Shown piece by piece: positions 1-19,227 of a stretch of DNA of 26,300 bases. Each line of letters starts with the position of its first letter. The stretch's first letter is position 1. The stretch comes from a virus (taxonomy: Duplodnaviria; Heunggongvirae; Uroviricota; Caudoviricetes). A model generated the notes under the pieces. It was not told the DNA's origin. It was given only the letters and a program-made list of their open reading frames with translations, and made no database searches. Location: the IMG/VR virus record IMGVR_UViG_2602041671_000009; one strand, given 5' to 3'. A program made the position numbers and the translations under genes.

Positions 1-1104
1 TTGCCGGCAAAAAGCAAGCATAAAGGAAGTATCCTGATAATAAGTGGTGGTCCCGGGTTACCAGGCATAAATCCTTATATTAACTTTGACTGGCCAGTCA
101 CAAATCTTCGTGAGTCATGGGATATTATTGGATTTGATCCTCGAGGCGTCGGACAGTCCACTCCGACAATAAACTGCCGGCAATCAGATACAGAGACTCA
201 GGAAAACATAACCGAAAAGCAACAAGTATTAAATAAAATTAATGCCTGTATCCATAATACCGGAGCCGAAGTCATTCGCCATATCGGCTCTAACGAGGCT
301 GTATACGATATTGATCGTATTAGGCAAGCCTTGGGGGATAAACAACTGACAGCCGTGGCGTATTCGTATGGAACTCAAATTGCAGCCTTATATGCAGAAC
401 GTTTTCCCTACAACGTAAGATCTATCGTTCTTGATGGAGTCGTCGATATCGATGACCTGGAGGACAACTTCACATGGCAACTCAAACAGGCACAGAGTTA
501 TCAGGAAACGTTTGATCGCTTTGCATCCTGGTGTGCGCGTACAAAAAGTTGCCCGCTTTCTTCAGACAGAGATAAGGCAATAACTCAGTTCCATGAGCTA
601 TTATCAAAATTACATCACAAACCTTTATTAGACAGTAAGGGAGAAAATATATCTTCAGATGAACTCATATCATTAACAACAGACCTTCTGCTATGGCGTT
701 CATCATGGCCAACCCTTGCAACTGCCATACGCCAGTTCTCTCAGGGGATTGTCAGTAATGAAATTGAAACTGCGCTCAGTGCTCCGATAGCCTCAGAAGA
801 GTCAAGCGATGCTTCGGGGGTAATCCTCTGTGTAGATCAGGGGGATGAGCAATTAACACCAGAAGAGCGAAAATCCCGAAAAGACGCTCTTGCGAATGCC
901 TTCCCGGCTATTAACTTTGACAATGGACGTTCCGATTCACCTGATTTTTGTGAATTATGGCCAATACATAGCGACCTGAACAAAACTCGCCTGAAAAATA
1001 CTGTTCTGCCCTCTGGTTTACTGTTTGTAGCACACAAATACGACCCAACAACGCCCTGGATTAATGCCCGTAAGATGCAGAGAAATTTTCCAGCCCGTTA
1101 CTAA
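1..1104 (+). CDS. alpha/beta-hydrolase fold peptidase (prolyl aminopeptidase / S33-like), 5' partial
   Basis: Frame is open from the window edge to TAA at 1102-1104. Product has GFDPRGVGQS and an A-Y-S-Y-G nucleophile-elbow-like motif typical of alpha/beta hydrolases. True start probably lies upstream of the window. Confidence 0.55.
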   Translation: MPAKSKHKGSILIISGGPGLPGINPYINFDWPVTNLRESWDIIGFDPRGVGQSTPTINCRQSDTETQENITEKQQVLNKINACIHNTGAEVIRHIGSNEAVYDIDRIRQALGDKQLTAVAYSYGTQIAALYAERFPYNVRSIVLDGVVDIDDLEDNFTWQLKQAQSYQETFDRFASWCARTKSCPLSSDRDKAITQFHELLSKLHHKPLLDSKGENISSDELISLTTDLLLWRSSWPTLATAIRQFSQGIVSNEIETALSAPIASEESSDASGVILCVDQGDEQLTPEERKSRKDALANAFPAINFDNGRSDSPDFCELWPIHSDLNKTRLKNTVLPSGLLFVAHKYDPTTPWINARKMQRNFPARY

Positions 1105-1264
1105 CAATAAATGGTGATGGGCATACATTAGCTCTCACCGGAGTTAATTTATGTGTAGATAAAGCAGTTGTACATTACCTGATCACTCCACAAAAATAGA
1201 AAATATATACTGCCCAGGAAATTCTGAAGCAGAAATACAATAATTTCAAAATATTCCGCTATTT

Positions 1265-1298
1265 GCTCCCAATGCAAAACATATATTGCATTGGGAGC
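1265..1298. repeat. 13-bp perfect inverted repeat (GCTCCCAATGCAA ... TTGCATTGGGAGC) with short AT spacer
   Basis: Read directly from the sequence; lies in the intergenic gap between the hydrolase and the Tfa-like fragment. Confidence 0.6.
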
Positions 1299-1426
1299 AT
1301 ATTCATATTTTTGTTATTATTGTATGAAATCGTCTCATGTACACGGTCCTTTTTTCGCCGAAAACTGATATTACTTTAATCAAAAGTTGACGTGCCAGAT
1401 TCGAAGTAAATTTATAAAATATCAAA

Positions 1427-1732
1427 TCAATATACATTTTGCACCTTCGAGATAGTAATGACTGTTACTGTAACATGAGTTACAAACAGCTTCATACCCA
1501 GAGCTACTGATGTATCAACTCGATTCAACAATACCCGATATTTATTCCATGCCTCCAGCAACGATCTTTCTTCCTCCGTTGCGATTTCCAGATCTACAGC
1601 ATCCTGCAGTGGCGCAATATACTCACTGAATTCCTGGATGTAGAACTGTGTGGTGACGGTCTTCCAGCCATTCGGCTCCTGCTGTATCGAAGCATACCAG
1701 GCTATTTCAATATCGCTATGCTGCGGCAGCAT
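1427..1732 (-). CDS. tail fibre assembly (Tfa)-like small ORF, probable gene remnant
   Basis: 101-aa ORF whose central segment ([38 protein letters not shown]) is near-identical to the C-terminal domain of the Tfa at 4238-4813. Flanking residues are unrelated. Confidence 0.45.
1505..1622. repeat. direct repeat copy 1 (tfa 3' segment)
   Basis: About 120 bp aligns at roughly 85-90 percent with 4270-4388 in the same orientation; identical 40-bp core at 1567-1606 versus 4333-4372. Confidence 0.7.
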
Positions 1733-1871
1733 TTAACCCCTTGTAATTCATCGCCATAATTGATTTAATTCACAAATAAAACTATAACATGGTGAAATTA
1801 ATGAAAAAAACACAGATGATGGGGCTAAAATTTACACACCACTTACCCTAAAGCTTTATGACTGGTGGGTT

Positions 1872-2455
1872 TTGGGAGTATCAAATCGGCTTGCATGGGG
1901 ATGTCCTACAAAGGAACACCTTCTTCCACACTTTCTGGAACATTTAGGTAACAACCATCTGGATATTGGTGTTGGAACTGGGTTTTACCTTACTCACGTA
2001 CCTGAGAGTAGTCTGATATCTTTAATGGATTTGAACGAAGCTAGCCTGAACGCGGCATCTACAAGGCTGGGGAATCAAAAATTAAACATAAAATTAACCA
2101 TGATGTTTTTGAACCTTATCCCGCGGCGTTACATGGTCAATTTGATTCCATTTCCATGTTTTACCTTCTTCACTGCCTGCCTGGAAATATATCTACAAAA
2201 AGCTGTGTAATACGCAATGCGGCGCAGGCCTTAACTGACGATGGAACTCTATACGGAGCCACAATTCTTGGCGATGGAGTTGTGCACAATAGCTTCGGTC
2301 AAAAACTGATGCGCATTTACAATCAGAAAGGCATCTTTTCAAACACAAAAGATTCCGAAGAAGGCTTAACACATATACTCTCAGAGCATTTCGAGAATGT
2401 TAAAACCAAGGTTCAAGGTACTGTAGTAATGTTTTCCGCTTCAGGGAAAAAATAG
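1872..2455 (+). pseudogene. class I SAM-dependent methyltransferase, frameshifted
   Basis: ORF 1872-2210 carries LDIGVGTG (SAM-binding motif I) and an MDLNE acidic motif. ORF 2156-2455 in another frame continues with FDSISMFYLLHCLP and DGTLYGATIL. The second frame is open from 2045 (...NHDVFEPYP...), so the frames swap inside the A-rich run around 2077-2092. Confidence 0.45.
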
Positions 2456-3002
2456 CATCCAACCGCAGCACGTTCTTGCATAAGGCGTGTCTGCGGTTTT
2501 TCAACTATTCAGATACATCACTCCCATCACATTCATTCCTCCGCATCATAGGCATATAGGCTATATCACCTTGATATTTTTCTTCTTCAGATAAAAACTG
2601 TTATCTATGTATACTTTTAAACCCAATCCGTGTAGAGTCTCTGCATAAGATAGTTTGCAGTTGCCACTTCAGCTTGCGCCATAAACCGCCTGATTTTTGC
2701 CGCCACCTGTTAGCATTCCTGTATACCTGAAACGACAATGTTTATCTACGAACTTTAAGAACACCCAGGATAAAAATTGTCAACTATATCATATATAACA
2801 CATTACTAATTCGAGGCTATATGAACAGCATACTGATAATCACTTCTCTCCTTATCATATTCAGCATTTTTAGTCATGCCCTAATAAAATTAGGGATTGG
2901 CATATCCAATAACCCAGACAAAACCGATGTATAAGTCAACATATCCTGAATCAGACATACAATATCGCAATGAAAATCAATAATATTTTAAGGAATATCT
3001 TC

Positions 3003-3236
3003 ATGAAATCAAAAGACACCCTAAAGTGGTTCCCTGCGCAGCTTCCTGAAGTAAGAATTATCCTAGGGGATGCTGTAGTGGAAGTAGCAAAACAGGGAAG
3101 ACCTATCAATACCAGAACATTGCTTGATTACATTGAAGGAAACATAAAGAAAAAATCATGGCTGGATAACAAAGAATTATTACAAACAGCGATATCAGTT
3201 CTTAAAGACAACCAAAATTTAAATGGTAAAATGTAA
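3003..3236 (+). CDS. YdfK/YnaE-like small prophage protein (77 aa)
   Basis: ATG at 3003 preceded by AAGGAA about 9 nt upstream. Product MKSKDTLKWFPAQLPEVRIILGDAVVEVAKQG... matches my recollection of the Qin/Rac ydfK/ynaE products that sit next to pin genes. Long AT-rich region upstream. Confidence 0.55.
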   Translation: MKSKDTLKWFPAQLPEVRIILGDAVVEVAKQGRPINTRTLLDYIEGNIKKKSWLDNKELLQTAISVLKDNQNLNGKM

Positions 3237-3552
3237 TATAATAAACTTACTTTTTTATCATTTTTCCACTTTAACAACATTTTGCTCCACTTTTCCACGA
3301 TCAAACAACTTGAAATCTGGTTAAAATAACACGCAACACTATTCTTCTTCCTTGAGTCCGCCCGGAACTCGAAAAACAAACCGAGTTAAAGCCATTTTTC
3401 ACAAAATCGATTTTGGGTCTCACCAAAATTACGGGGTTGCATACGCATTCGTTTATTTTCGAACGTGTACATACAAATATGCACAAAAATAATCAAAATT
3501 ATTTTCTGAGATGCATTATGATATGAACACCAATTTCGTATAGAGTCTCACT

Positions 3553-4142
3553 ATGTCTCGAATTTTTGCTTACTGTCGGATATCAACGCTGGATCAGACC
3601 ATCGAAAATCAACGCCGGGAAATCGAAAGTGCAGGTTTTAAAATCAAACCTCAGCAAATAATCGAAGAACACATTAGCGGCTCAGCAGCAACCAGTGAGC
3701 GTCCTGGTTTTAACCGGTTGCTTGCTCGCCTGAAATGTGGTGATCAATTGATTGTGACAAAACTGGATCGCCTTGGTTGTAATGCAATGGATATCAGGAA
3801 AACAGTGGAACAACTGACCGAAACAGGTATCAGAGTGCATTGCTTAGCATTGGGGGGCATTGACCTGACCAGTCCAACAGGAAAAATGATGATGCACGTA
3901 ATTTCAGCAGTCGCTGAATTTGAACGAGACCTTTTACTTGAACGCACTCATTCCGGGATAGTAAGAGCCGCGGCGCAGGGAAACGTTTTGGTCGACCACC
4001 TGTGTTAAATGAAGAACAGAAACAGGTGGTATTCGAACGAATTAAGTCAGGTGTAAGTATAAGTGCCATTGCCCGGGAATTCAAAACCTCGCGGCAAACC
4101 ATTTTAAGAGCCAAAGCAAAACTTCAGACACCTGACATATAA
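3553..4142 (+). pseudogene. pin: serine recombinase / DNA invertase (PinR/PinQ-like), frameshifted
   Basis: ORF 3553-4008 encodes the catalytic domain (YCRISTLDQ with nucleophilic Ser, LDRLGCN...). The C-terminal HTH ([53 protein letters not shown]) is in a different frame from 4002 to TAA at 4140-4142. The frame break maps to the GGG/AAA run at 3978-3983. Confidence 0.7.
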
Positions 4143-4237
4143 AATAATCTCGGTGTGAGATGCTTTACGTCTTCCAAGCCCCCTTCCTTGCCGTAAATGG
4201 AAAGATACATCTAATTATAGAATTTATATGTTTTACC

Positions 4238-4813
4238 CTACGGCAGTGCTGGCCATTCAATATCCTGTGCAGTTGACGTATCAACACGGTTCAGCAACAC
4301 CCGATACTTTTTCCAGGCTTCCAGCAATGAGGTTTCTTCCTCCGTTGCGATTTCCAGATCTACAGCATCCTGAAGTGGCGCAATATGCTCACTGGCTACC
4401 TGCATCAGGCTGTTTTTTGTTTCTTCCGCCTCTCGGATCCGGAACAGTTTTTCTGCTTCTGCATCTTTCACCCAGGCTGTGCCGTTCCACTTCTGAAACT
4501 CCCCTTCCGGCGATAACCAGGTAACATTTTCCGGTAACGGACCGAGTTCAGAAATAAATAACGCGTCCCCTGACGCTACGTCATAAACCGTTTTACCCCG
4601 ATGGTCTTCAACGAGATGCCACGATGCCTTATCACTGTTGAAAACAGCCACAAAGCCAGCAGGAATATCTGGTGGTGCAATATCGGTACTGTTTGCTGGC
4701 AGACCTGTATGAGGCGGAATATATGCGTCACCTTCACCAATAAATTCATTAGTTCCGGCCAGCAGATTATAAATTTTTATGGTCCGTGGTTGTTCACTCA
4801 TTCTGAATGCCAT
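4238..4813 (-). CDS. tfa: tail fibre assembly protein Tfa (lambda-like)
   Basis: 191-aa [34 protein letters not shown]... through ...[29 protein letters not shown]. Matches lambda Tfa from memory. Start overlaps the stop of the upstream fibre ORF. Confidence 0.85.
4270..4388. repeat. direct repeat copy 2 (tfa 3' segment)
   Basis: Partner of 1505-1622; same orientation. Confidence 0.7.
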
Positions 4814-5448
4814 TATGCAAGCCTCACAATATAGTTAAATGCGATGTTTTTGACGGTGTTTTCCGCGTTACCAGCAGCGTTAACGGTGATGGTGTGTCCA
4901 TGTGAACCAATCGCAACGGAGTGCGTATGAGCACCAATACCGACAGTATGCGCGTGTGCACCTGCAGATGCTGCTGTGCCGGACAGTGAATGGCTATGAT
5001 TACCATCTGTACTGGTATTCGCTAACCACCCCGTAGACATACCTACTGAGCCTTGTACACCCCAGGTATTTTGACCTGAGCTTGTATAACCATATTGATA
5101 AGTATCTTTAAAAACACTGGGGTTAAATCGACGGCCATCTCTATGGCTGTGATTACCAGCTGCATTCGTGCTGCCACTTAAACTATGGGTATGCGCACCA
5201 GTGTTATTCGTGGATTTAGTGCCGTAATCAAACGACGATGTGGTTTTCGTCCCCAAATCCGTACTGGATGCGCTGGCGCTGTGGGTATGCGATTTAATGC
5301 CGTCCTGTTCCTGAGACAATACGGCCCGACCACTGGCAGGTTTGCCCTTAATCGTCCAGCCACGCATATCCACGATGGCTTCTTTTTCCGGTACATGCTG
5401 CACGGCGGTGATGGCATACGTGCCGTCGTCGTTCTCACGGATACTCAC
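4813..5448 (-). pseudogene. side tail fibre C-terminal portion fused to an internal J segment (chimeric remnant)
   Basis: 211-aa ORF starts [27 protein letters not shown] (recalled as internal to lambda host-specificity protein J), then continues with a histidine-rich HTHS/HSHS repeat region ending ...[11 protein letters not shown], typical of Stf-type fibre C-termini. Confidence 0.6.
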
Positions 5449-5801
5449 GCACCGAAGGTAAAGCGCAGACGGTCGATGTTTGCAGACGTAATGGTGCGGG
5501 TGATCGGCGTGTCATATTTCACTTCCGTACCCAGCACCGTCTCGGAGCCGGAGGATTCAAACCCCTCCGGCGGTGTCTGCTCCTGCTCACCGGCACGGAA
5601 CACCACCGTGACACCGGAGATGTTGGTATTCCCCTCAGTGTCCAGCACCGGCGTACTGTTCAGCAGCACGCTTTTTAATCCATCCACCGGACCTTCAACC
5701 GGCCCTTCGCTGATGGCATCGATCACACTCAGCAACTGCGTGGACTTCAGGTTGTCCTTCGCTTCGCGCGGGGTATGCCCCTTACTGCTTCCTTTACCCA
5801 T
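5445..5801 (-). pseudogene. J: host specificity protein J, N-terminal 118-codon fragment
   Basis: MGKGSSKGHTPREAKDNLKSTQLLSVIDAISEGPVEGPVDGLKSVLLNSTPVLDTEGNTNISGVTVVFRAGEQEQTPPEG... matches the lambda J N-terminus. Frame stops at 5445; J is over 1100 aa in lambda, so most of the gene is missing. Confidence 0.8.
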
Positions 5802-8206: not shown

Positions 8207-8436
8207 CGTCCACCTCCGGAGAACAGACCACCATCGCGCATCTGCCCGGTCACAACATCCATTGCCGCCTTACGGGCTACGTCATAAACAGCCTTCAGCG
8301 CCTGTGGCCCTAGCTGGCGACGTTGTGCCGCCTCCTCCAGTACCGCGAACTGACTTTCTGCCTTCCACAAATCCCGGCGCTGCTGGCTGATTTTCTCATT
8401 TGCTCCGGCATGCTTCTCCAGCGTCCGGAGTAGCCG
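8203..8436 (-). pseudogene. probable tape-measure (H) 3' remnant
   Basis: Open frame without ATG ending ...MRDGGLFSGGGR with its TGA overlapping the M start (ATGA), as expected for the gene upstream of M. Assignment to H is by position and partial recollection only. Confidence 0.4.
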
Positions 8437-9094
8437 TTATCCGTATCCTGAGCCGTCTGCAGGTTCAGTGAGTCACCCGGCATCAGGTGCGGTACTTTTG
8501 CGCCTCCCAGCCGGACCGGCGCTGCGGCGTAATACGCGGCAATTTCACCAATCCAGCCGGTCAGCCTTTCCCGCTGCTCCTGACTGTTCGCGCCCAGAAT
8601 AAAATCCATCGCTGACTGCGTATCCAGCTCACTCTCAATGGTGGCGGCATACATCGCCTTCACAATGGCGCTCTGCAGCTGCGTGTTCTGCAGCGTGTCG
8701 AGCATCTTCATCTGCTCCATCACGCTGTAAAACACATTTGCACCGCGAGTCTGCCCGTCCTCCACGGGTTCAAAAACGTGAATGAACGAGGCGCGCCCGC
8801 CGGGTAACTCACGGGGTATCCATGTCCATTTCTGCGGCATCCAGCCAGGATACCCGTCCTCGCTGACGTAATATCCCAGCGCCGCACCGCTGTCATTAAT
8901 CTGCACACCGGCACGGCAGTTCCGGCTGTCGCCGGTATTGTTCGGGTTGCTGATGCGCTTCGGGCTGACCATCCGGAACTGTGTCCGGAAAAGCCGCGAC
9001 GAACTGGTATCCAGGTGGCCTGAACGAACAGTTCACCGTTAAAGGCGTGCATGGCCACACCTTCCCGAATCATCATGGTAACCGGCATATTCAC
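8428..9094 (-). pseudogene. B: portal protein B, fragmented (N-terminus missing, internal frameshift, 3' end lost)
   Basis: ORF 8720-9094 contains MMIREGVAMHAFNGELFVQATW and ORF 8310-8972 contains MVSPKRISNPNNTGDSRNCRAGVQIN...QTAQDTDNGYS, both matching internal lambda gpB. Frames swap at a GG run near 9011-9012. Only about 50 bp separate W from the first B fragment, so the B N-terminus is absent. Confidence 0.75.
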
Positions 9095-9145: not shown

Positions 9146-10824
<1,679 letters not shown>

Positions 10825-15391: not shown

Positions 15392-16489
15392 ATGAAAAAA
15401 TTAACAGTGGCAATTTCTGCTGTAGCTGCATCAGTACTGATGGCGATGTCTGCTCAGGCAGCTGAAATTTATAATAAAGACAGTAACAAGCTGGATCTGT
15501 ACGGGAAAGTTAATGCCAAGCACTACTTTTCCTCTAACGATGCAGATGATGGTGATACTACTTATGTTCGTCTGGGCTTCAAAGGCGAAACCCAAATCAA
15601 CGATCAGCTGACTGGTTTCGGTCAGTGGGAATATGAATTCAAAGGCAACCGCGCTGAATCTCAAGGTTCCTCCAAAGACAAAACCCGTCTTGCATTTGCA
15701 GGCCTGAAATTCGGTGACTACGGCTCAATCGATTACGGCCGTAACTACGGTGTAGCATACGACATCGGTGCGTGGACTGACGTTCTGCCAGAATTCGGTG
15801 GCGATACCTGGACCCAAACAGATGTGTTCATGACTGGTCGCACCACTGGTGTTGCAACCTATCGTAACAACGACTTCTTTGGTCTGGTTGATGGTCTGAA
15901 CTTTGCTGCTCAGTACCAAGGCAAAAACGATCGTAGCGATTTCGATAACTACACCGAAGGTAACGGTGATGGCTTCGGTTTCTCTGCTACCTATGAATAC
16001 GAAGGATTCGGTATCGGTGCAACTTATGCGAAATCTGATCGTACCGACACTCAAGTTAATGCAGGGAAAGTTCTTCCTGAAGTATTTGCTTCCGGTAAAA
16101 ATGCAGAAGTTTGGGCCGCAGGTCTGAAATATGACGCTAACAACATTTACCTGGCCACTACCTATTCTGAAACCCAGAATATGACTGTATTTGCTGATCA
16201 CTTCGTTGCTAATAAAGCTCAAAACTTCGAAGCTGTTGCACAATATCAGTTCGATTTCGGTCTGCGTCCGTCCGTTGCTTACCTGCAATCTAAAGGTAAG
16301 GATCTTGGAGTATGGGGCGATCAGGACTTAGTCAAATATGTTGATGTAGGTGCAACCTATTACTTCAACAAAAATATGTCTACTTTCGTTGATTACAAAA
16401 TCAACCTGCTTGACAAAAATGACTTCACTAAAGCACTCGGTGTAAGCACTGATGACATCGTTGCTGTAGGTCTGGTTTACCAGTTCTAA
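15392..16489 (+). CDS. OmpC-family general porin (prophage-encoded, NmpC/Lc-like)
   Basis: ATG at 15392 with AAGGG upstream. Signal peptide [23 protein letters not shown], mature N-terminus [18 protein letters not shown]-terminal ...VGLVYQF. The ORF-track start at 15332 adds a non-native N-extension. Confidence 0.88.
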
Positions 16490-16653
16490 TCTGATTACGA
16501 AAAAGATATGTTGCGGGAGGCGTTGCCTCCCCAACATATAAGTGGCTCCCTCAAGCCACTTCCTTTAGGAGCACAACCTTGCTTCTAACTATATAAACCT
16601 TCTGTTATATATTACCCTTTATTTTTGGGGGCGTTGCAACGCCCCATTTTTAA
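16490..16653 (+). ncRNA. possible IpeX-like sRNA / porin 3' UTR with intrinsic terminator
   Basis: Hairpin GGGAGGCGTTGCCTCCC just after the porin stop, and palindrome GGGGCGTTGCAACGCCCC at 16628-16645 followed by ATTTTTAAT. In DLP12 an sRNA is reported near the nmpC 3' end; assignment here is by position only. Confidence 0.3.
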
Positions 16654-16678
16654 TAACTTTCAGTAAACAATTGGCATA

Positions 16679-17062
16679 TTAATTAGAGTTATTAACAACG
16701 ATATCCATCTCTAACCGGATATCTAATGCCATTAACATCCCTTCAATTATGCCCTCAGCCTTCTGTAACCTTTTCCCGATATAACCATCAGAGCAGCAAT
16801 GCTTACCTGCCAGTGACATGAATGTCATACCGACTACATAATAATCTACTAATAAATCGTGCAAATCGCTGTTGTTCTTTTTCAGACGGGCCATGCACCC
16901 GCAAATGATCATCGCGTCATCGTCACAACATTGCGGGCGAGATTTTACTTTTGAAGGAATTAATCCCTTAAAACCGGCGGCAATGGACGACCAGGTCACA
17001 TCTTCATGATTATTAGCCGCCCACGCTCCCCAACGTTCAAGAACCATCTGAATATCACGCAT
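16679..17062 (-). CDS. Q: late antiterminator Q (QuuD-like)
   Basis: 127-aa product from ATG 17062 ([26 protein letters not shown]...CGCMARLKK...) with GGAG about 9 nt upstream. Note the frame is open upstream into the methyltransferase. Confidence 0.75.
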
Positions 17063-17797
17063 TAACTTTCTCCACAAAATCAGGCCAGCACACCAATCGC
17101 CAGTGCGCGATCGATAAAACGAAATATCAGCTCCAGCTGGGAGCCATGCCGCCATCTCCCTGACCAGTTTTTCCGCCTGCTGGCGAACCTGCGCCAGAAA
17201 GGCCTCACCACATGCCTCAAGTTCATCGCGCCCGATGTAGCTGATTGCCGGTCCCTTCCAGGTCTTGTCGAAAACAGCAATAGCACCAGCGAAGAAAGCG
17301 CCTGTCGGCACCTGCTTCTCGTCCTTCGGGATAAACCAGGCTGGCAGTTCAAAACCAATACGCCCGCGAATAAAAGCAATATGGTCTGCATCTTCCGGCC
17401 ACCAAACTTCGCTGGTGGCAGCTTTGATCAGGAAAACATAGCGCCCGCCTTTATCACGCATGGCACTGGCATGCTTCATGATGTAACGCATGCCGGTGAT
17501 GTATTGCCCCTCATGCTGACTGGCGCGGCTGTACGGGGGATTACCAAAGGCAGCACCTTTAAGCTCCGCAAGACGTTCTGACCAGTCATGCGCCAGCGCG
17601 TTGTCTTCCGCAGTGTAATAAGCGGCGCATTTGGCGTTATCACCATCAGTAAACAGATCCAGAACAAACGGGCCAAACAGGGTGTTAATTCCCCAGAAAA
17701 TGTTGTCCGGCGTGCGCCACTGATCGCCCACTTCCTTCAGTTCATGGGCTGGTTTGTTCCGCAGCTCCACCAGCGCCTGGCAATATTTATTACTCAT
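17063..17797 (-). CDS. phage Dam-like N6-adenine DNA methyltransferase, in-frame continuous with Q
   Basis: Product [72 protein letters not shown]...FGNPPYSR (NPPY amino-MTase motif). No stop codon separates it from the Q codons; ORF 16679-17830 is one 383-aa frame. Confidence 0.65.
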
Positions 17798-18291
17798 TAA
17801 GCCCCCACGTAATTCCCTGACAGATACCACTCTTCACCCGATGCAGCGCGCTTGCTGCTTTTCCGTAAACACCGCTCACGACGCGCAAGAAAATTGTTTC
17901 GCTCTTGCTGGGAGTGGCTTTCACGGAATGCCGCCATCCACACCGTTGCAGCACGACGGTATAAGCCCCTGGACTCCAGTTCTTCCGCCTGGCGGGTCAG
18001 GCACAAAATCACCCGGGGATCGTTAGTGCCGACATAGAAATTGCGCACAGGTCTGGATTCACGAACTGGTTGCGGTTCCGGCTCCTGCGGTATCTCAGTT
18101 AGCCGCGGGAAATGTCTGCGTGTATCCCCTTCACAACGGTGAGCCACACGCCCACTCTGACGTAACTTGCTTGCTGACTGCAGAACGCGCTGTCGTGAGT
18201 AACCTGCAAAAGCATCCGCAATGTCTCCGGAAGTACACCCCGGATGGGCTTCAATGAATTTCTGAACGTCATTCAAAAGACTCATGATCAC
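17797..18291 (-). CDS. hypothetical early protein (YfdN-like; PerC-like C-terminal motif)
   Basis: 164-aa ORF, translationally coupled on both sides. C-terminal [18 protein letters not shown]...[13 protein letters not shown] resembles PerC-family motifs. Confidence 0.4.
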
Positions 18292-18641
18292 CCCCTGAAT
18301 CCTGCCGGGATCTGGCTGTAGTCCACGTTGTCGTAACTGGCTTTGAAGTACGGGTCTTCGCGTTTTTCGGTGTACGTGCTGACGGACGGCGATAAGCGCA
18401 GGGAAAGCTCATCCCATTTTTCCCGCAGCTTCGACGGGCTGAGCACGTTACGGCACCAGAACGGATCGCGACTGACGCGGCTGTACATCTCGCAGATTTG
18501 TTTATGAGTACGACCATCCTGCACACACATCAGGCGAATTTCGTTTGCCCAGGCTGTCCAGTTCGGTTCTTTGGGACGAACCACCTCGCCGTCACATTCG
18601 GCGGCATGCTCGTACAGGGCGATGATTTTTTCCAGAGCCAC
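18288..18641 (-). CDS. hypothetical protein, possibly a detached C-terminal part of the replication initiator (YfdO-like)
   Basis: 117-codon frame beginning at GTG 18641, only 10 nt downstream of the initiator stop; no motif recognised. Confidence 0.35.
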   Translation of the reverse strand: MALEKIIALYEHAAECDGEVVRPKEPNWTAWANEIRLMCVQDGRTHKQICEMYSRVSRDPFWCRNVLSPSKLREKWDELSLRLSPSVSTYTEKREDPYFKASYDNVDYSQIPAGFRG

Positions 18642-18651
18642 TGTGCGCAGG

Positions 18652-19227
18652 TCAAATCATCCTGTGTCCCCCACTGGCGCTTTTTAGGCTGAATACAACC
18701 GCATCAGGATGGCGAGTTAAAAAATCCTGTTCAGCCGTCTGCGTGTCCGGTTGCGAAGAGTCCGGACGAGAAGGTTTTTTATCTGACGGATCATGTTTTG
18801 ATTTTACTGACGGATCCCCGCCAGATTCTGACGGGTGAAAACCCGCTTTTTTGCCAGATTTCGACGCATCAAATTTTGACGGGTCAGATTTTGATGCGTC
18901 AGATTTTGACGGGTCAGAATCTGACAGTTGAGAAAATGCCGCTGCCTGAAGCTTCGCAACGTTAAGCTGATAAACATTCGACGCATTGCGGTTACCCTGG
19001 CGACGCGCCTTACGCGTTAACCAGCCTTCTGCTTCCAGCCGTGCGATAGCCGTTCTGACGGTACTCATCCCCGCGCCAATCTGGCGGGCAATGGTTTCAA
19101 TCGATGGCCAGCACACACCTTCGTCATTACTGAAATCAGCCAGGCGGGCCATAATTGCCACGCTGGATAATTTCATGCCTGACGCTGCGCAACCATCCCA
19201 TACATAGCCGGTTAATTTAGTGCTCAT
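18652..19227 (-). CDS. replication initiator-like protein (N-terminal winged-HTH), iterons within the coding sequence
   Basis: 191-aa ORF with HTH segment WPSIETIARQIGAGMSTVRTAIARLEAEGWLTRKARR, followed by a low-complexity DPSKSDASKSDPSKFDASKSG linker encoded by tandem DNA repeats. Confidence 0.55.
   Translation of the reverse strand: MSTKLTGYVWDGCAASGMKLSSVAIMARLADFSNDEGVCWPSIETIARQIGAGMSTVRTAIARLEAEGWLTRKARRQGNRNASNVYQLNVAKLQAAAFSQLSDSDPSKSDASKSDPSKFDASKSGKKAGFHPSESGGDPSVKSKHDPSDKKPSRPDSSQPDTQTAEQDFLTRHPDAVVFSLKSASGGHRMI
18784..18931. repeat. iteron-like direct repeats (putative prophage ori)
   Basis: About eight copies of a TGACGG(G/A)TCA-containing unit. The last four are spaced 14-16 bp apart (ATTTTGACGGGTCAG / ATTTTGATGCGTCAG / ATTTTGACGGGTCAG / AATCTGACAGTTGAG). 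Confidence 0.55.

What the first reader, a model, noticed from the sequence alone, without database searches (positions are those of the whole stretch)
16679..17797. Dam-like methyltransferase reading frame runs without a stop into antiterminator Q
The Q start (ATG 17062, with its own GGAG) lies inside a 383-codon frame that begins with a complete-looking NPPY methyltransferase. Either a deletion fused the two genes, removing whatever normally separates them, or Q is normally expressed from an internal start within a read-through frame. The outcome would be a fusion protein and/or independent Q.
Basis: seen in the sequence. Interest (0 to 1): 0.45.

Follow-up and report, generated by a model that had tools for sequence, protein, structure and literature searches.

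The report
Deletion-made methylase–antiterminator Q fusion frame
A 2.5-kb deletion in a decaying prophage of one E. coli strain removed four genes and accidentally joined a phage DNA methylase gene in frame to the antiterminator Q gene; this is ordinary prophage decay, not a new kind of gene.

Summary
On the minus strand one frame runs from ATG 17797 to the stop at 16679-16681. It is 372 codons, or 383 from an upstream GTG. It contains a complete phage N-6-adenine methyltransferase, a 28-codon linker and a complete QuuD, a Q21-family antiterminator.

The window is E. coli O104:H21 strain 94-3024. ECOR29 carries the same prophage at the same argU/intD site, with four genes between the methyltransferase and quuD: a LexA-like regulator, RusA, a KilA-N protein and a DUF968 protein.

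The window lacks exactly 2,471 bp. The breakpoints share a 3-nt ATG microhomology. The deletion turns the methyltransferase stop TGA into TGG and reads the DUF968 3' remnant out of frame into quuD.

The intact order occurs in 2,091 of 5,426 complete E. coli genomes and in isolated phages. The junction occurs only in this strain. Among 5.8 billion protein clusters, one single-member cluster has this architecture.

quuD keeps its own GGAG ribosome-binding site. Both a 41.8-kDa fusion and a 14.2-kDa Q are therefore predicted, but neither is shown. The prophage carries at least four other internal deletions. RefSeq already marks the fragments as pseudogenes. Interest is low.

The parts
17147..17797 (-). 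Phage N-6-adenine methyltransferase, codons 1-217 (complete protein; its own stop is lost)
   Evidence: TIGR01712 253.5 bits. Pfam Dam aa 18-198. Differs at a single residue from the 217-aa homologue P0017 over its whole length. PGAP calls it 'phage N-6-adenine-methyltransferase, incomplete, missing C-terminus'.
17531..17542 (-). NPPY catalytic motif (aa 86-89)
17145..17147 (-). Deletion junction. A 3-nt microhomology, ATG on the minus strand (CAT on +). Here the methyltransferase stop TGA becomes TGG.
   Evidence: Reading of ECOR29 against 94-3024. BLAST HSPs overlap at 17145-17147, with 2,471 bp missing.
17063..17146 (-). 28-codon accidental linker ([28 protein letters not shown]). It consists of the last 64 nt of the DUF968 coding sequence read out of frame, that gene's TGA stop, and the 17-nt DUF968-quuD spacer.
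17080..17151 (-). 3' remnant of the DUF968 gene in its own frame (pseudogene fragment)
   Evidence: PGAP annotation in NZ_CP009106.2. Identical to the end of the full 990-bp gene in ECOR29.
17070..17073 (-). GGAG Shine-Dalgarno of quuD, 7 nt before the ATG; retained
   Evidence: Read from the sequence
16679..17062 (-). quuD, a complete Q21-family antiterminator Q (127 aa plus stop)
   Evidence: Pfam PF06530 1-118/118. Annotated as WP_001204780.1 QuuD in both 94-3024 and ECOR29. The exact sequence sits in a 1,234-member cluster. Homology to Q21 structures 6P18/6JNX, E 7.6e-8.
17798..17830 (-). Open extension of the frame upstream of the true ATG, back to a GTG. It accounts for the '383 codons' and overlaps the 3' end of yfdN. 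It is not a real start.
   Evidence: 217-aa homologues
17797..18291 (-). yfdN (PerC family). Its stop overlaps the methyltransferase start (TAATG), which suggests translational coupling into the fusion frame.
15392..16489 (+). Porin gene (365 aa) convergent with quuD; context only
   Evidence: terminator hairpin at 16628-16645

Best explanation
The continuous frame is a by-product of one 2,471-bp deletion in a defective lambdoid prophage. The prophage sits at the argU/intD (DLP12) site of E. coli O104:H21 strain 94-3024.

Shown:
- The ancestral order, kept in ECOR29 and in isolated phages, is methyltransferase, LexA-like regulator, RusA, KilA-N protein, DUF968 protein, quuD.
- The left breakpoint lies in the ATGA where the methyltransferase stop overlaps the next gene's start. 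The right breakpoint lies at an ATG 64 nt before the DUF968 stop.
- The joint changes TGA to TGG.
- The 84 nt that follow contain no stop in the methyltransferase frame, and that frame matches the frame of quuD.

Inferred:
- The deletion arose by illegitimate recombination or replication slippage at the ATG microhomology.
- When the early-right operon is derepressed, ribosomes that start at the methyltransferase ATG make a 372-aa, 41.8-kDa Dam-linker-QuuD chimera.
- Ribosomes that start at the retained GGAG-N7-ATG still make native 14.2-kDa QuuD.
- Nothing suggests the fusion is selected. It is one of at least five internal deletions in a prophage that has lost most of its head and tail genes.
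For: The window matches 94-3024 at 100% over 16600-17900.

ECOR29 has the same prophage at the same site, with four extra genes. The flanks are 99.3-99.8% identical, and a clean 2,471-bp gap with a 3-nt overlap separates them. The junction was also read directly.

A 72-nt 3' remnant of DUF968 remains in the window. This fixes the direction of the event as a deletion.

The intact module occurs in 2,091 of 5,426 genomes. It also occurs in isolated phages such as PhiR29_1/2, cdtI and mEp460.

The junction occurs in 2 of 5,426 genomes, both the same strain, and in 0 phage and 0 plasmid records.

Only one protein cluster, with one member, combines PF05869 and PF06530 among 5.8 billion clusters. That exact sequence is on two NCBI contigs.

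Four more deletions relative to ECOR29 (958, 8,094, 332 and 424 bp) truncate the terminase, portal and tail genes.

Other one-off fusions of the same methyltransferase exist: with the LexA-like gene, with RusA and with a lambda-type Q fragment. Accidental fusions therefore recur in this module.
Against: Nothing contradicts the deletion.

The products are not shown; there are no expression data. The ATG microhomology is only 3 nt, so the deletion mechanism is inferred. Whether the fusion folds, methylates DNA or antiterminates is unknown.
Confidence: 0.95

Rival explanations
1. Assembly or sequencing artefact: the 2.47-kb segment is present in the strain but was collapsed or lost during assembly, or an indel error created the open frame.
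For: The window carries 14 single-base homopolymer deficits relative to NZ_CP009106.2. Its assembly version is therefore error-prone. The strain was first assembled from PacBio RS II reads only (PMC4393859).
Against: None of the 14 errors lies in 16679-17830. Two complete assemblies, CP009106.2 and CP023541.1, are 100% identical across the region. A separate draft contig, JXWH01000025.1, encodes the identical 372-aa protein and is an exact substring of CP009106.2. The deleted segment is unique sequence flanked by only 3 nt of homology, so it is not a repeat that an assembler would collapse.
Confidence: 0.02
2. The normal arrangement in this phage group is a read-through frame, with Q expressed from an internal start, or a conserved bifunctional Dam-Q protein.
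For: The Q start has its own good GGAG site inside the frame. The methyltransferase is often found fused to neighbouring genes in gene calls.
Against: In relatives the methyltransferase ends with TGA, four genes follow, and the DUF968 stop lies 17 nt before the Q ATG. That order holds in 2,091 genomes. In 41 phage records one match covers at least 80% of the intact module. The Dam+PF06530 architecture is a single one-member cluster. The linker is out-of-frame DUF968 sequence, not an evolved linker.
Confidence: 0.01
3. The deletion was selected. It could act like the lambda nin5 deletion, removing terminators or toxic genes (KilA-N, a LexA-like regulator) so that Q and the lysis cassette are expressed differently. 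Alternatively the chimera could have a new activity.
For: The deletion lies in the same position as lambda nin deletions, between the replication/early genes and Q (own knowledge of lambda nin5; positions). It removes a KilA-N domain gene. All 217 methyltransferase residues and all 127 QuuD residues are kept. The N-terminus of Q21 (residues 1-6) is disordered in the RNAP complexes, so an N-terminal extension is not obviously excluded (bioRxiv 10.1101/651190).
Against: The deleted segment has no convincing same-strand intrinsic terminator. Only two weak 5-6-bp stems were found, and total counts were within shuffle expectation. The junction is confined to one strain. The prophage has four other deletions that destroy its morphogenesis genes, which fits neutral decay. 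An in-frame, stop-free outcome has about a 9% prior.
Confidence: 0.03

Closest known systems
Intact nin-type module of ECOR29 prophage / phages PhiR29_1, PhiR29_2, cdtI, mEp460 (methyltransferase, LexA-like, RusA, KilA-N, DUF968, Q)
   Same: Same genes on both sides. Flanks are 99.3-99.8% identical to ECOR29. Same integration site, argU tRNA-Arg/intD next to fimZ. The annotated QuuD protein and porin protein are identical.
   Different: The window lacks the 2,471 bp that carry the LexA-like, RusA and KilA-N genes and 918 of the 990 bp of the DUF968 gene. The methyltransferase has lost its stop and runs into quuD.
E. coli K-12 DLP12 defective prophage (quuD, porin gene, essD-rrrD-rzpD, bor, ybcV, ybcW, nohD)
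   Same: Same chromosomal site and the same gene names for the late region as assigned by PGAP. It is likewise a decayed lambdoid prophage (own knowledge).
   Different: The early region here is of the yfdN/yfdP-R, ymfK/T/L type. The methyltransferase-quuD junction is specific to strain 94-3024.
Bacteriophage lambda nin5 deletion (own knowledge, not tested here)
   Same: A deletion of about 2.5-2.8 kb that removes the non-essential genes between the replication genes and Q and brings Q close to the upstream genes.
   Different: nin5 is defined by removal of terminators (tR2 and others), which makes Q expression N-independent. No convincing terminator was found in the segment deleted here. This phage's early region has no identified N system. 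nin5 is not known to create an in-frame fusion to Q.
Q21 antiterminator (PDB 6P18, 6JNX)
   Same: The QuuD part matches PF06530 over the full profile and matches Q21 chains at E 7.6e-8. PF06530 is named the Q21/Q933W family in bioRxiv 10.1101/651190.
   Different: QuuD has 127 aa and Q21 has 162 aa. The phmmer match covers QuuD residues 8-87. Here QuuD can also be made with a 245-residue N-terminal extension.

Membership tests
Phage N-6-adenine methyltransferase (TIGR01712 / Pfam PF05869 Dam) | Full-length profile match above the curated cut-off | tested here: met
   TIGR01712 253.5 bits against a cut-off of 97.05, profile 1-165/165. PF05869 153.9 bits against 28.1.
Phage N-6-adenine methyltransferase (TIGR01712 / Pfam PF05869 Dam) | Catalytic (D/N)PPY motif | tested here: met
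   NPPY at aa 86-89, window 17531-17542
Phage N-6-adenine methyltransferase (TIGR01712 / Pfam PF05869 Dam) | Complete protein of 217 aa with its own stop codon | tested here: not met
   All 217 residues are present, but the deletion converts the TGA to TGG. PGAP flags the gene as a pseudogene missing its C-terminus.
Phage N-6-adenine methyltransferase (TIGR01712 / Pfam PF05869 Dam) | DNA adenine methylation activity | not testable with these tools
   Needs methylome or enzyme assays
Q21/Q933W-family antiterminator Q (Pfam PF06530) | Full-length profile match | tested here: met
   177.4 bits against a cut-off of 26, profile 1-118/118
Q21/Q933W-family antiterminator Q (Pfam PF06530) | Sequence homology to structurally characterised Q21 | tested here: met
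   6P18_P and 6JNX_P, E 7.6e-8, query residues 8-87
Q21/Q933W-family antiterminator Q (Pfam PF06530) | Gene position between the nin-type region and the lysis cassette of a lambdoid phage | tested here: met
   quuD is followed by the porin gene and essD-rrrD-rzpD
Q21/Q933W-family antiterminator Q (Pfam PF06530) | Q-binding element and sigma-dependent pause at a late promoter; antitermination activity | not tested
   The consensus promoter scan downstream of quuD gave nothing informative. No QBE consensus for QuuD was available.
Conserved bifunctional Dam-Q protein (natural multidomain architecture) | Same domain architecture recurs in independent lineages | tested here: not met
   One cluster with one member among 5.8 billion. 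The junction is found only in strain 94-3024.
Conserved bifunctional Dam-Q protein (natural multidomain architecture) | Linker is dedicated coding sequence | tested here: not met
   The linker is the DUF968 3' end read out of frame, plus an intergenic spacer
lambda nin5-type deletion | Deletion between the early/replication genes and Q | tested here: met
lambda nin5-type deletion | Removes intrinsic terminators upstream of Q | tested here: inconclusive
   Only two weak same-strand stem-loops in the deleted segment. Totals were 10 found against 5.7 +/- 2.8 in shuffles, over both strands.

The most novel reading that the evidence does not exclude
The chimera is made and active. In that reading, a complete adenine methyltransferase is covalently tethered to a Q21-type antiterminator that rides with RNA polymerase. 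Alternatively, the deletion acts like a natural nin deletion and changes when QuuD and the DLP12-type lysis cassette are expressed in this STEC outbreak strain.
Probability: 0.03. Interest if true: 0.35.

Novelty: already known. Interest (0 to 1): 0.08.

Why it matters
It matters little biologically. It is a clean, fully resolved example of prophage decay, in which a deletion at a short microhomology creates a chimeric reading frame by chance.

Its practical value is for annotation:
- A long two-domain ORF in a prophage should be checked against intact relatives before it is read as a new architecture.
- RefSeq already treats the pieces as pseudogene fragments plus an intact quuD.
- The window sequence contains homopolymer errors elsewhere. 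These could mislead other first-stage findings from this window.

Tried and rejected
- Terminators in the deleted segment, to test the nin5 analogy: nothing convincing on the coding strand.
- Promoter and terminator scan around quuD to locate a late promoter: uninformative. The only promoter-like sites lie inside quuD, and the terminator hairpin found serves the porin gene.
- Literature on quuD: 17 papers hold the term, and none of the 10 listed concerns QuuD function. The genome paper for 94-3024 does not discuss this locus in the passages shown.
- Assembly artefact: rejected on the agreement of three assemblies.
- Insertion in relatives instead of a deletion here: rejected because the DUF968 3' remnant is present.
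- Structure prediction of the chimera: not run. A model of an accidental fusion would not decide anything.
- The first two run_python calls failed only because several loci are stored together in one file.

Full report
**Observation**

The feature lies on the minus strand. The ORF listing gives one ORF, 16679..17830 (GTG start, 383 aa). From ATG 17797 it has 372 codons plus a stop.

- Pfam places a Dam domain (PF05869) at aa 18-198 and a full-length Phage_antitermQ domain (PF06530, profile 1-118/118) at aa 246-363.
- NCBIfam TIGR01712, phage N-6-adenine-methyltransferase, scores 253.5 bits against a cut-off of 97.
- NPPY is at aa 86-89.
- The Q start is ATG 17062. It is preceded by GGAG at 17073-17070 with a 7-nt spacer.

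The figure of 383 codons counts a spurious GTG extension that overlaps yfdN.

**Source and annotation**

The region 16600-17900 is 100% identical to E. coli O104:H21 strain 94-3024 (NZ_CP009106.2) and to a second assembly of the same strain (NZ_CP023541.1). No other genome among 5,426 complete E. coli genomes covers more than 66% of it in one place.

PGAP annotates the locus as three features:
- a methyltransferase pseudogene, 'missing C-terminus';
- a 72-nt DUF968 pseudogene fragment, 'missing N-terminus';
- an intact quuD (WP_001204780.1).

**What relatives look like**

ECOR29 (NZ_CP197071.1) carries the same prophage at the same site: tRNA-Arg, intD, next to fimZ. Its gene order is methyltransferase (217 aa), LexA-family regulator (108 aa), RusA, KilA-N protein, DUF968 protein (329 aa), quuD.

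The junctions were read directly.
- In ECOR29 the methyltransferase ends ...GCG GCA TGA, with the next gene's ATG overlapping the stop (ATGA).
- The DUF968 gene contains ...GAAGTATGGCTCCCAGCTGG... and stops 17 nt before the quuD ATG.
- In 94-3024 the sequence reads ...GCGGCATGGCTCCCAGCTGG....

BLAST of the window against ECOR29 gives two HSPs that overlap by 3 nt at window 17145-17147, with 2,471 bp missing. The flanks are 99.8% identical (9,160 bp) and 99.3% identical (7,784 bp).

The retained DUF968 3' remnant fixes the direction of the event. This is a deletion in 94-3024, not an insertion in other strains.

**Consequences for the frame**

- The joint turns TGA into TGG.
- The next 84 nt contain no stop in the methyltransferase frame. 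They comprise 64 nt of DUF968 coding sequence read out of frame, the DUF968 TGA, and the 17-nt spacer. They encode [28 protein letters not shown].
- The quuD ATG happens to lie in the same frame.
- All 217 methyltransferase residues and all 127 QuuD residues are present.
- The chimera is 372 aa and 41.8 kDa. QuuD alone is 14.2 kDa.
- A random deletion would be in frame and stop-free over 28 codons about 9% of the time.

**How common is it**

- The intact module is covered at 80% or more in 2,091 of 5,426 genomes. The same holds for 41 phage records, including the isolated phages PhiR29_1/2, cdtI and mEp460.
- A 401-bp probe centred on the junction is spanned by 0 of 113 matching phage records and 0 of 24 matching plasmid records. 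All alignments stop at the breakpoint.
- Among 5.8 billion protein clusters, only P0001 combines PF05869 with PF06530. It has 372 aa, one member and two contigs.
- P0001 is the exact window protein (UniParc UPI00042A02BA).
- It is encoded on draft contig JXWH01000025.1. The 7,119-bp locus fetched from that contig is an exact substring of CP009106.2.

The same search shows other sporadic fusions of this methyltransferase:
- with the downstream LexA-like gene (PF01726; clusters of one or two members);
- with RusA (PF05866; single-member clusters);
- with a fragment of a lambda-type Q (P0046, PF03589; a single-member cluster);
- with the upstream PerC gene, which is more frequent.

Accidental fusions in this tightly packed, overlapping-stop module are therefore a recurring annotation phenomenon, not a conserved architecture.

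**Context**

Relative to ECOR29, the window's prophage has four further internal deletions. Three of them, of 8,094, 332 and 424 bp, have 2-6 nt of microhomology. In the fourth, 958 bp are replaced by 67 nt. PGAP marks the terminase, portal, J and other genes as partial. The methyltransferase-Q deletion is one event in ongoing prophage decay.

The CI-like repressor ymfK and the early operon look intact. Transcription of the fusion frame on SOS induction is therefore plausible, but this is inference.

**Mechanism and products (inferred)**

The deletion probably arose by illegitimate recombination or replication slippage at the ATG microhomology. The right breakpoint sits at the base of a 7-bp-stem quasi-palindrome, TGGCTCCCAGCTGGAGCTG. 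That structure may have favoured the event.

Translation from the methyltransferase ATG is coupled to yfdN through a TAATG overlap. It should now continue to the quuD stop and give the chimera. The retained GGAG-N7-ATG should still allow native QuuD to be made.

QuuD belongs to the Q21/Q933W family (bioRxiv 10.1101/651190). The N-terminal residues 1-6 of Q21 are disordered in the loading and loaded complexes. An N-terminal extension is therefore not obviously incompatible with function, but this is untested.

**The nin5 analogy**

The deletion occupies the same position as lambda nin deletions (own knowledge). The deleted segment shows no convincing same-strand terminator. The resemblance is therefore only positional.

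**Data-quality note**

The window differs from NZ_CP009106.2 by 14 single-base deficits, all next to or within runs of the missing base, and by no substitutions. The draft contig agrees with CP009106.2. The strain was first assembled from PacBio reads alone (PMC4393859).

These deficits are most likely consensus errors in the assembly version used for the window. None lies within 16679-17830, so the fusion frame is not affected. Other genes in the window are split artificially.

**Verdict**

The feature is a strain-specific by-product of prophage decay that RefSeq already flags as pseudogene fragments. Interest is low.

Noticed in passing
window 24799, 21166, 18686, 18625, 15375, 13774, 13148, 9010, 7389, 3967, 2064, 1803, 1191, 1076: The window lacks one base at 14 sites relative to NZ_CP009106.2, each next to or within a run of the same base. 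There are no substitutions. The draft contig JXWH01000025.1 agrees with CP009106.2 at the four of these sites it covers. These are probably long-read consensus errors. By annotated coordinates they fall inside several genes and would shift their frames. For example, the 313-aa HTH/replication gene appears as two ORFs (18652-19227 and 18288-18641). yfdT, rzpD, the tail protein L gene, the recombinase gene, the SAM methyltransferase gene and the alpha/beta hydrolase gene are also hit.
   Followed up: yes
window 8244-8312, 8426-8431, 9076-9081, 9367-9368: Four further internal deletions relative to the intact ECOR29 prophage. Three (8,094, 332 and 424 bp) have 6, 6 and 2 nt of microhomology. In the fourth, 958 bp are replaced by 67 nt. 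They remove or truncate the terminase, portal, capsid and tail genes, so the prophage cannot make particles.
   Followed up: partly
window 17128-17146 (minus strand): The right-hand breakpoint of the 2,471-bp deletion lies at the foot of a quasi-palindrome, TGGCTCCCAGCTGGAGCTG (7-pair stem). The structure might have favoured slippage. The terminator scan picks it up, but it sits inside coding sequence.
   Followed up: no
window 17797-18291 / proteins P0004-P0035: PerC(yfdN)-methyltransferase fusion proteins of 376-382 aa are fairly common in public gene calls; P0012, for example, is on 28 contigs. The yfdN stop overlaps the methyltransferase ATG (TAATG), and the methyltransferase frame is open upstream. 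That open stretch is why the mechanical ORF here starts at GTG 17830.
   Followed up: partly
protein P0046 (E. coli, 268 aa): An independent one-off fusion joins the first ~184 residues of the same methyltransferase to the C-terminal part of a lambda-type Q (PF03589). It looks like a second, different deletion joining a methyltransferase to a Q gene in another strain.
   Followed up: partly
window 1-5449: The left end of the window carries a recombinase-family gene, ydfK, a class I SAM methyltransferase, tail-fibre fragments and an alpha/beta hydrolase next to ompT. It has no match in the fetched 37-kb ECOR29 stretch, which ends inside gene J. Whether ECOR29 has a corresponding segment beyond that was not checked.
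   Followed up: no
window 15392-16489 (+) and 16500-16660: An intact 365-aa porin gene sits convergent to quuD, between Q and the lysis cassette. It is followed by two GC-rich hairpins, one scored as a terminator at 16628-16645. Any Q-dependent late transcript would have to read antisense through this gene.
   Followed up: no
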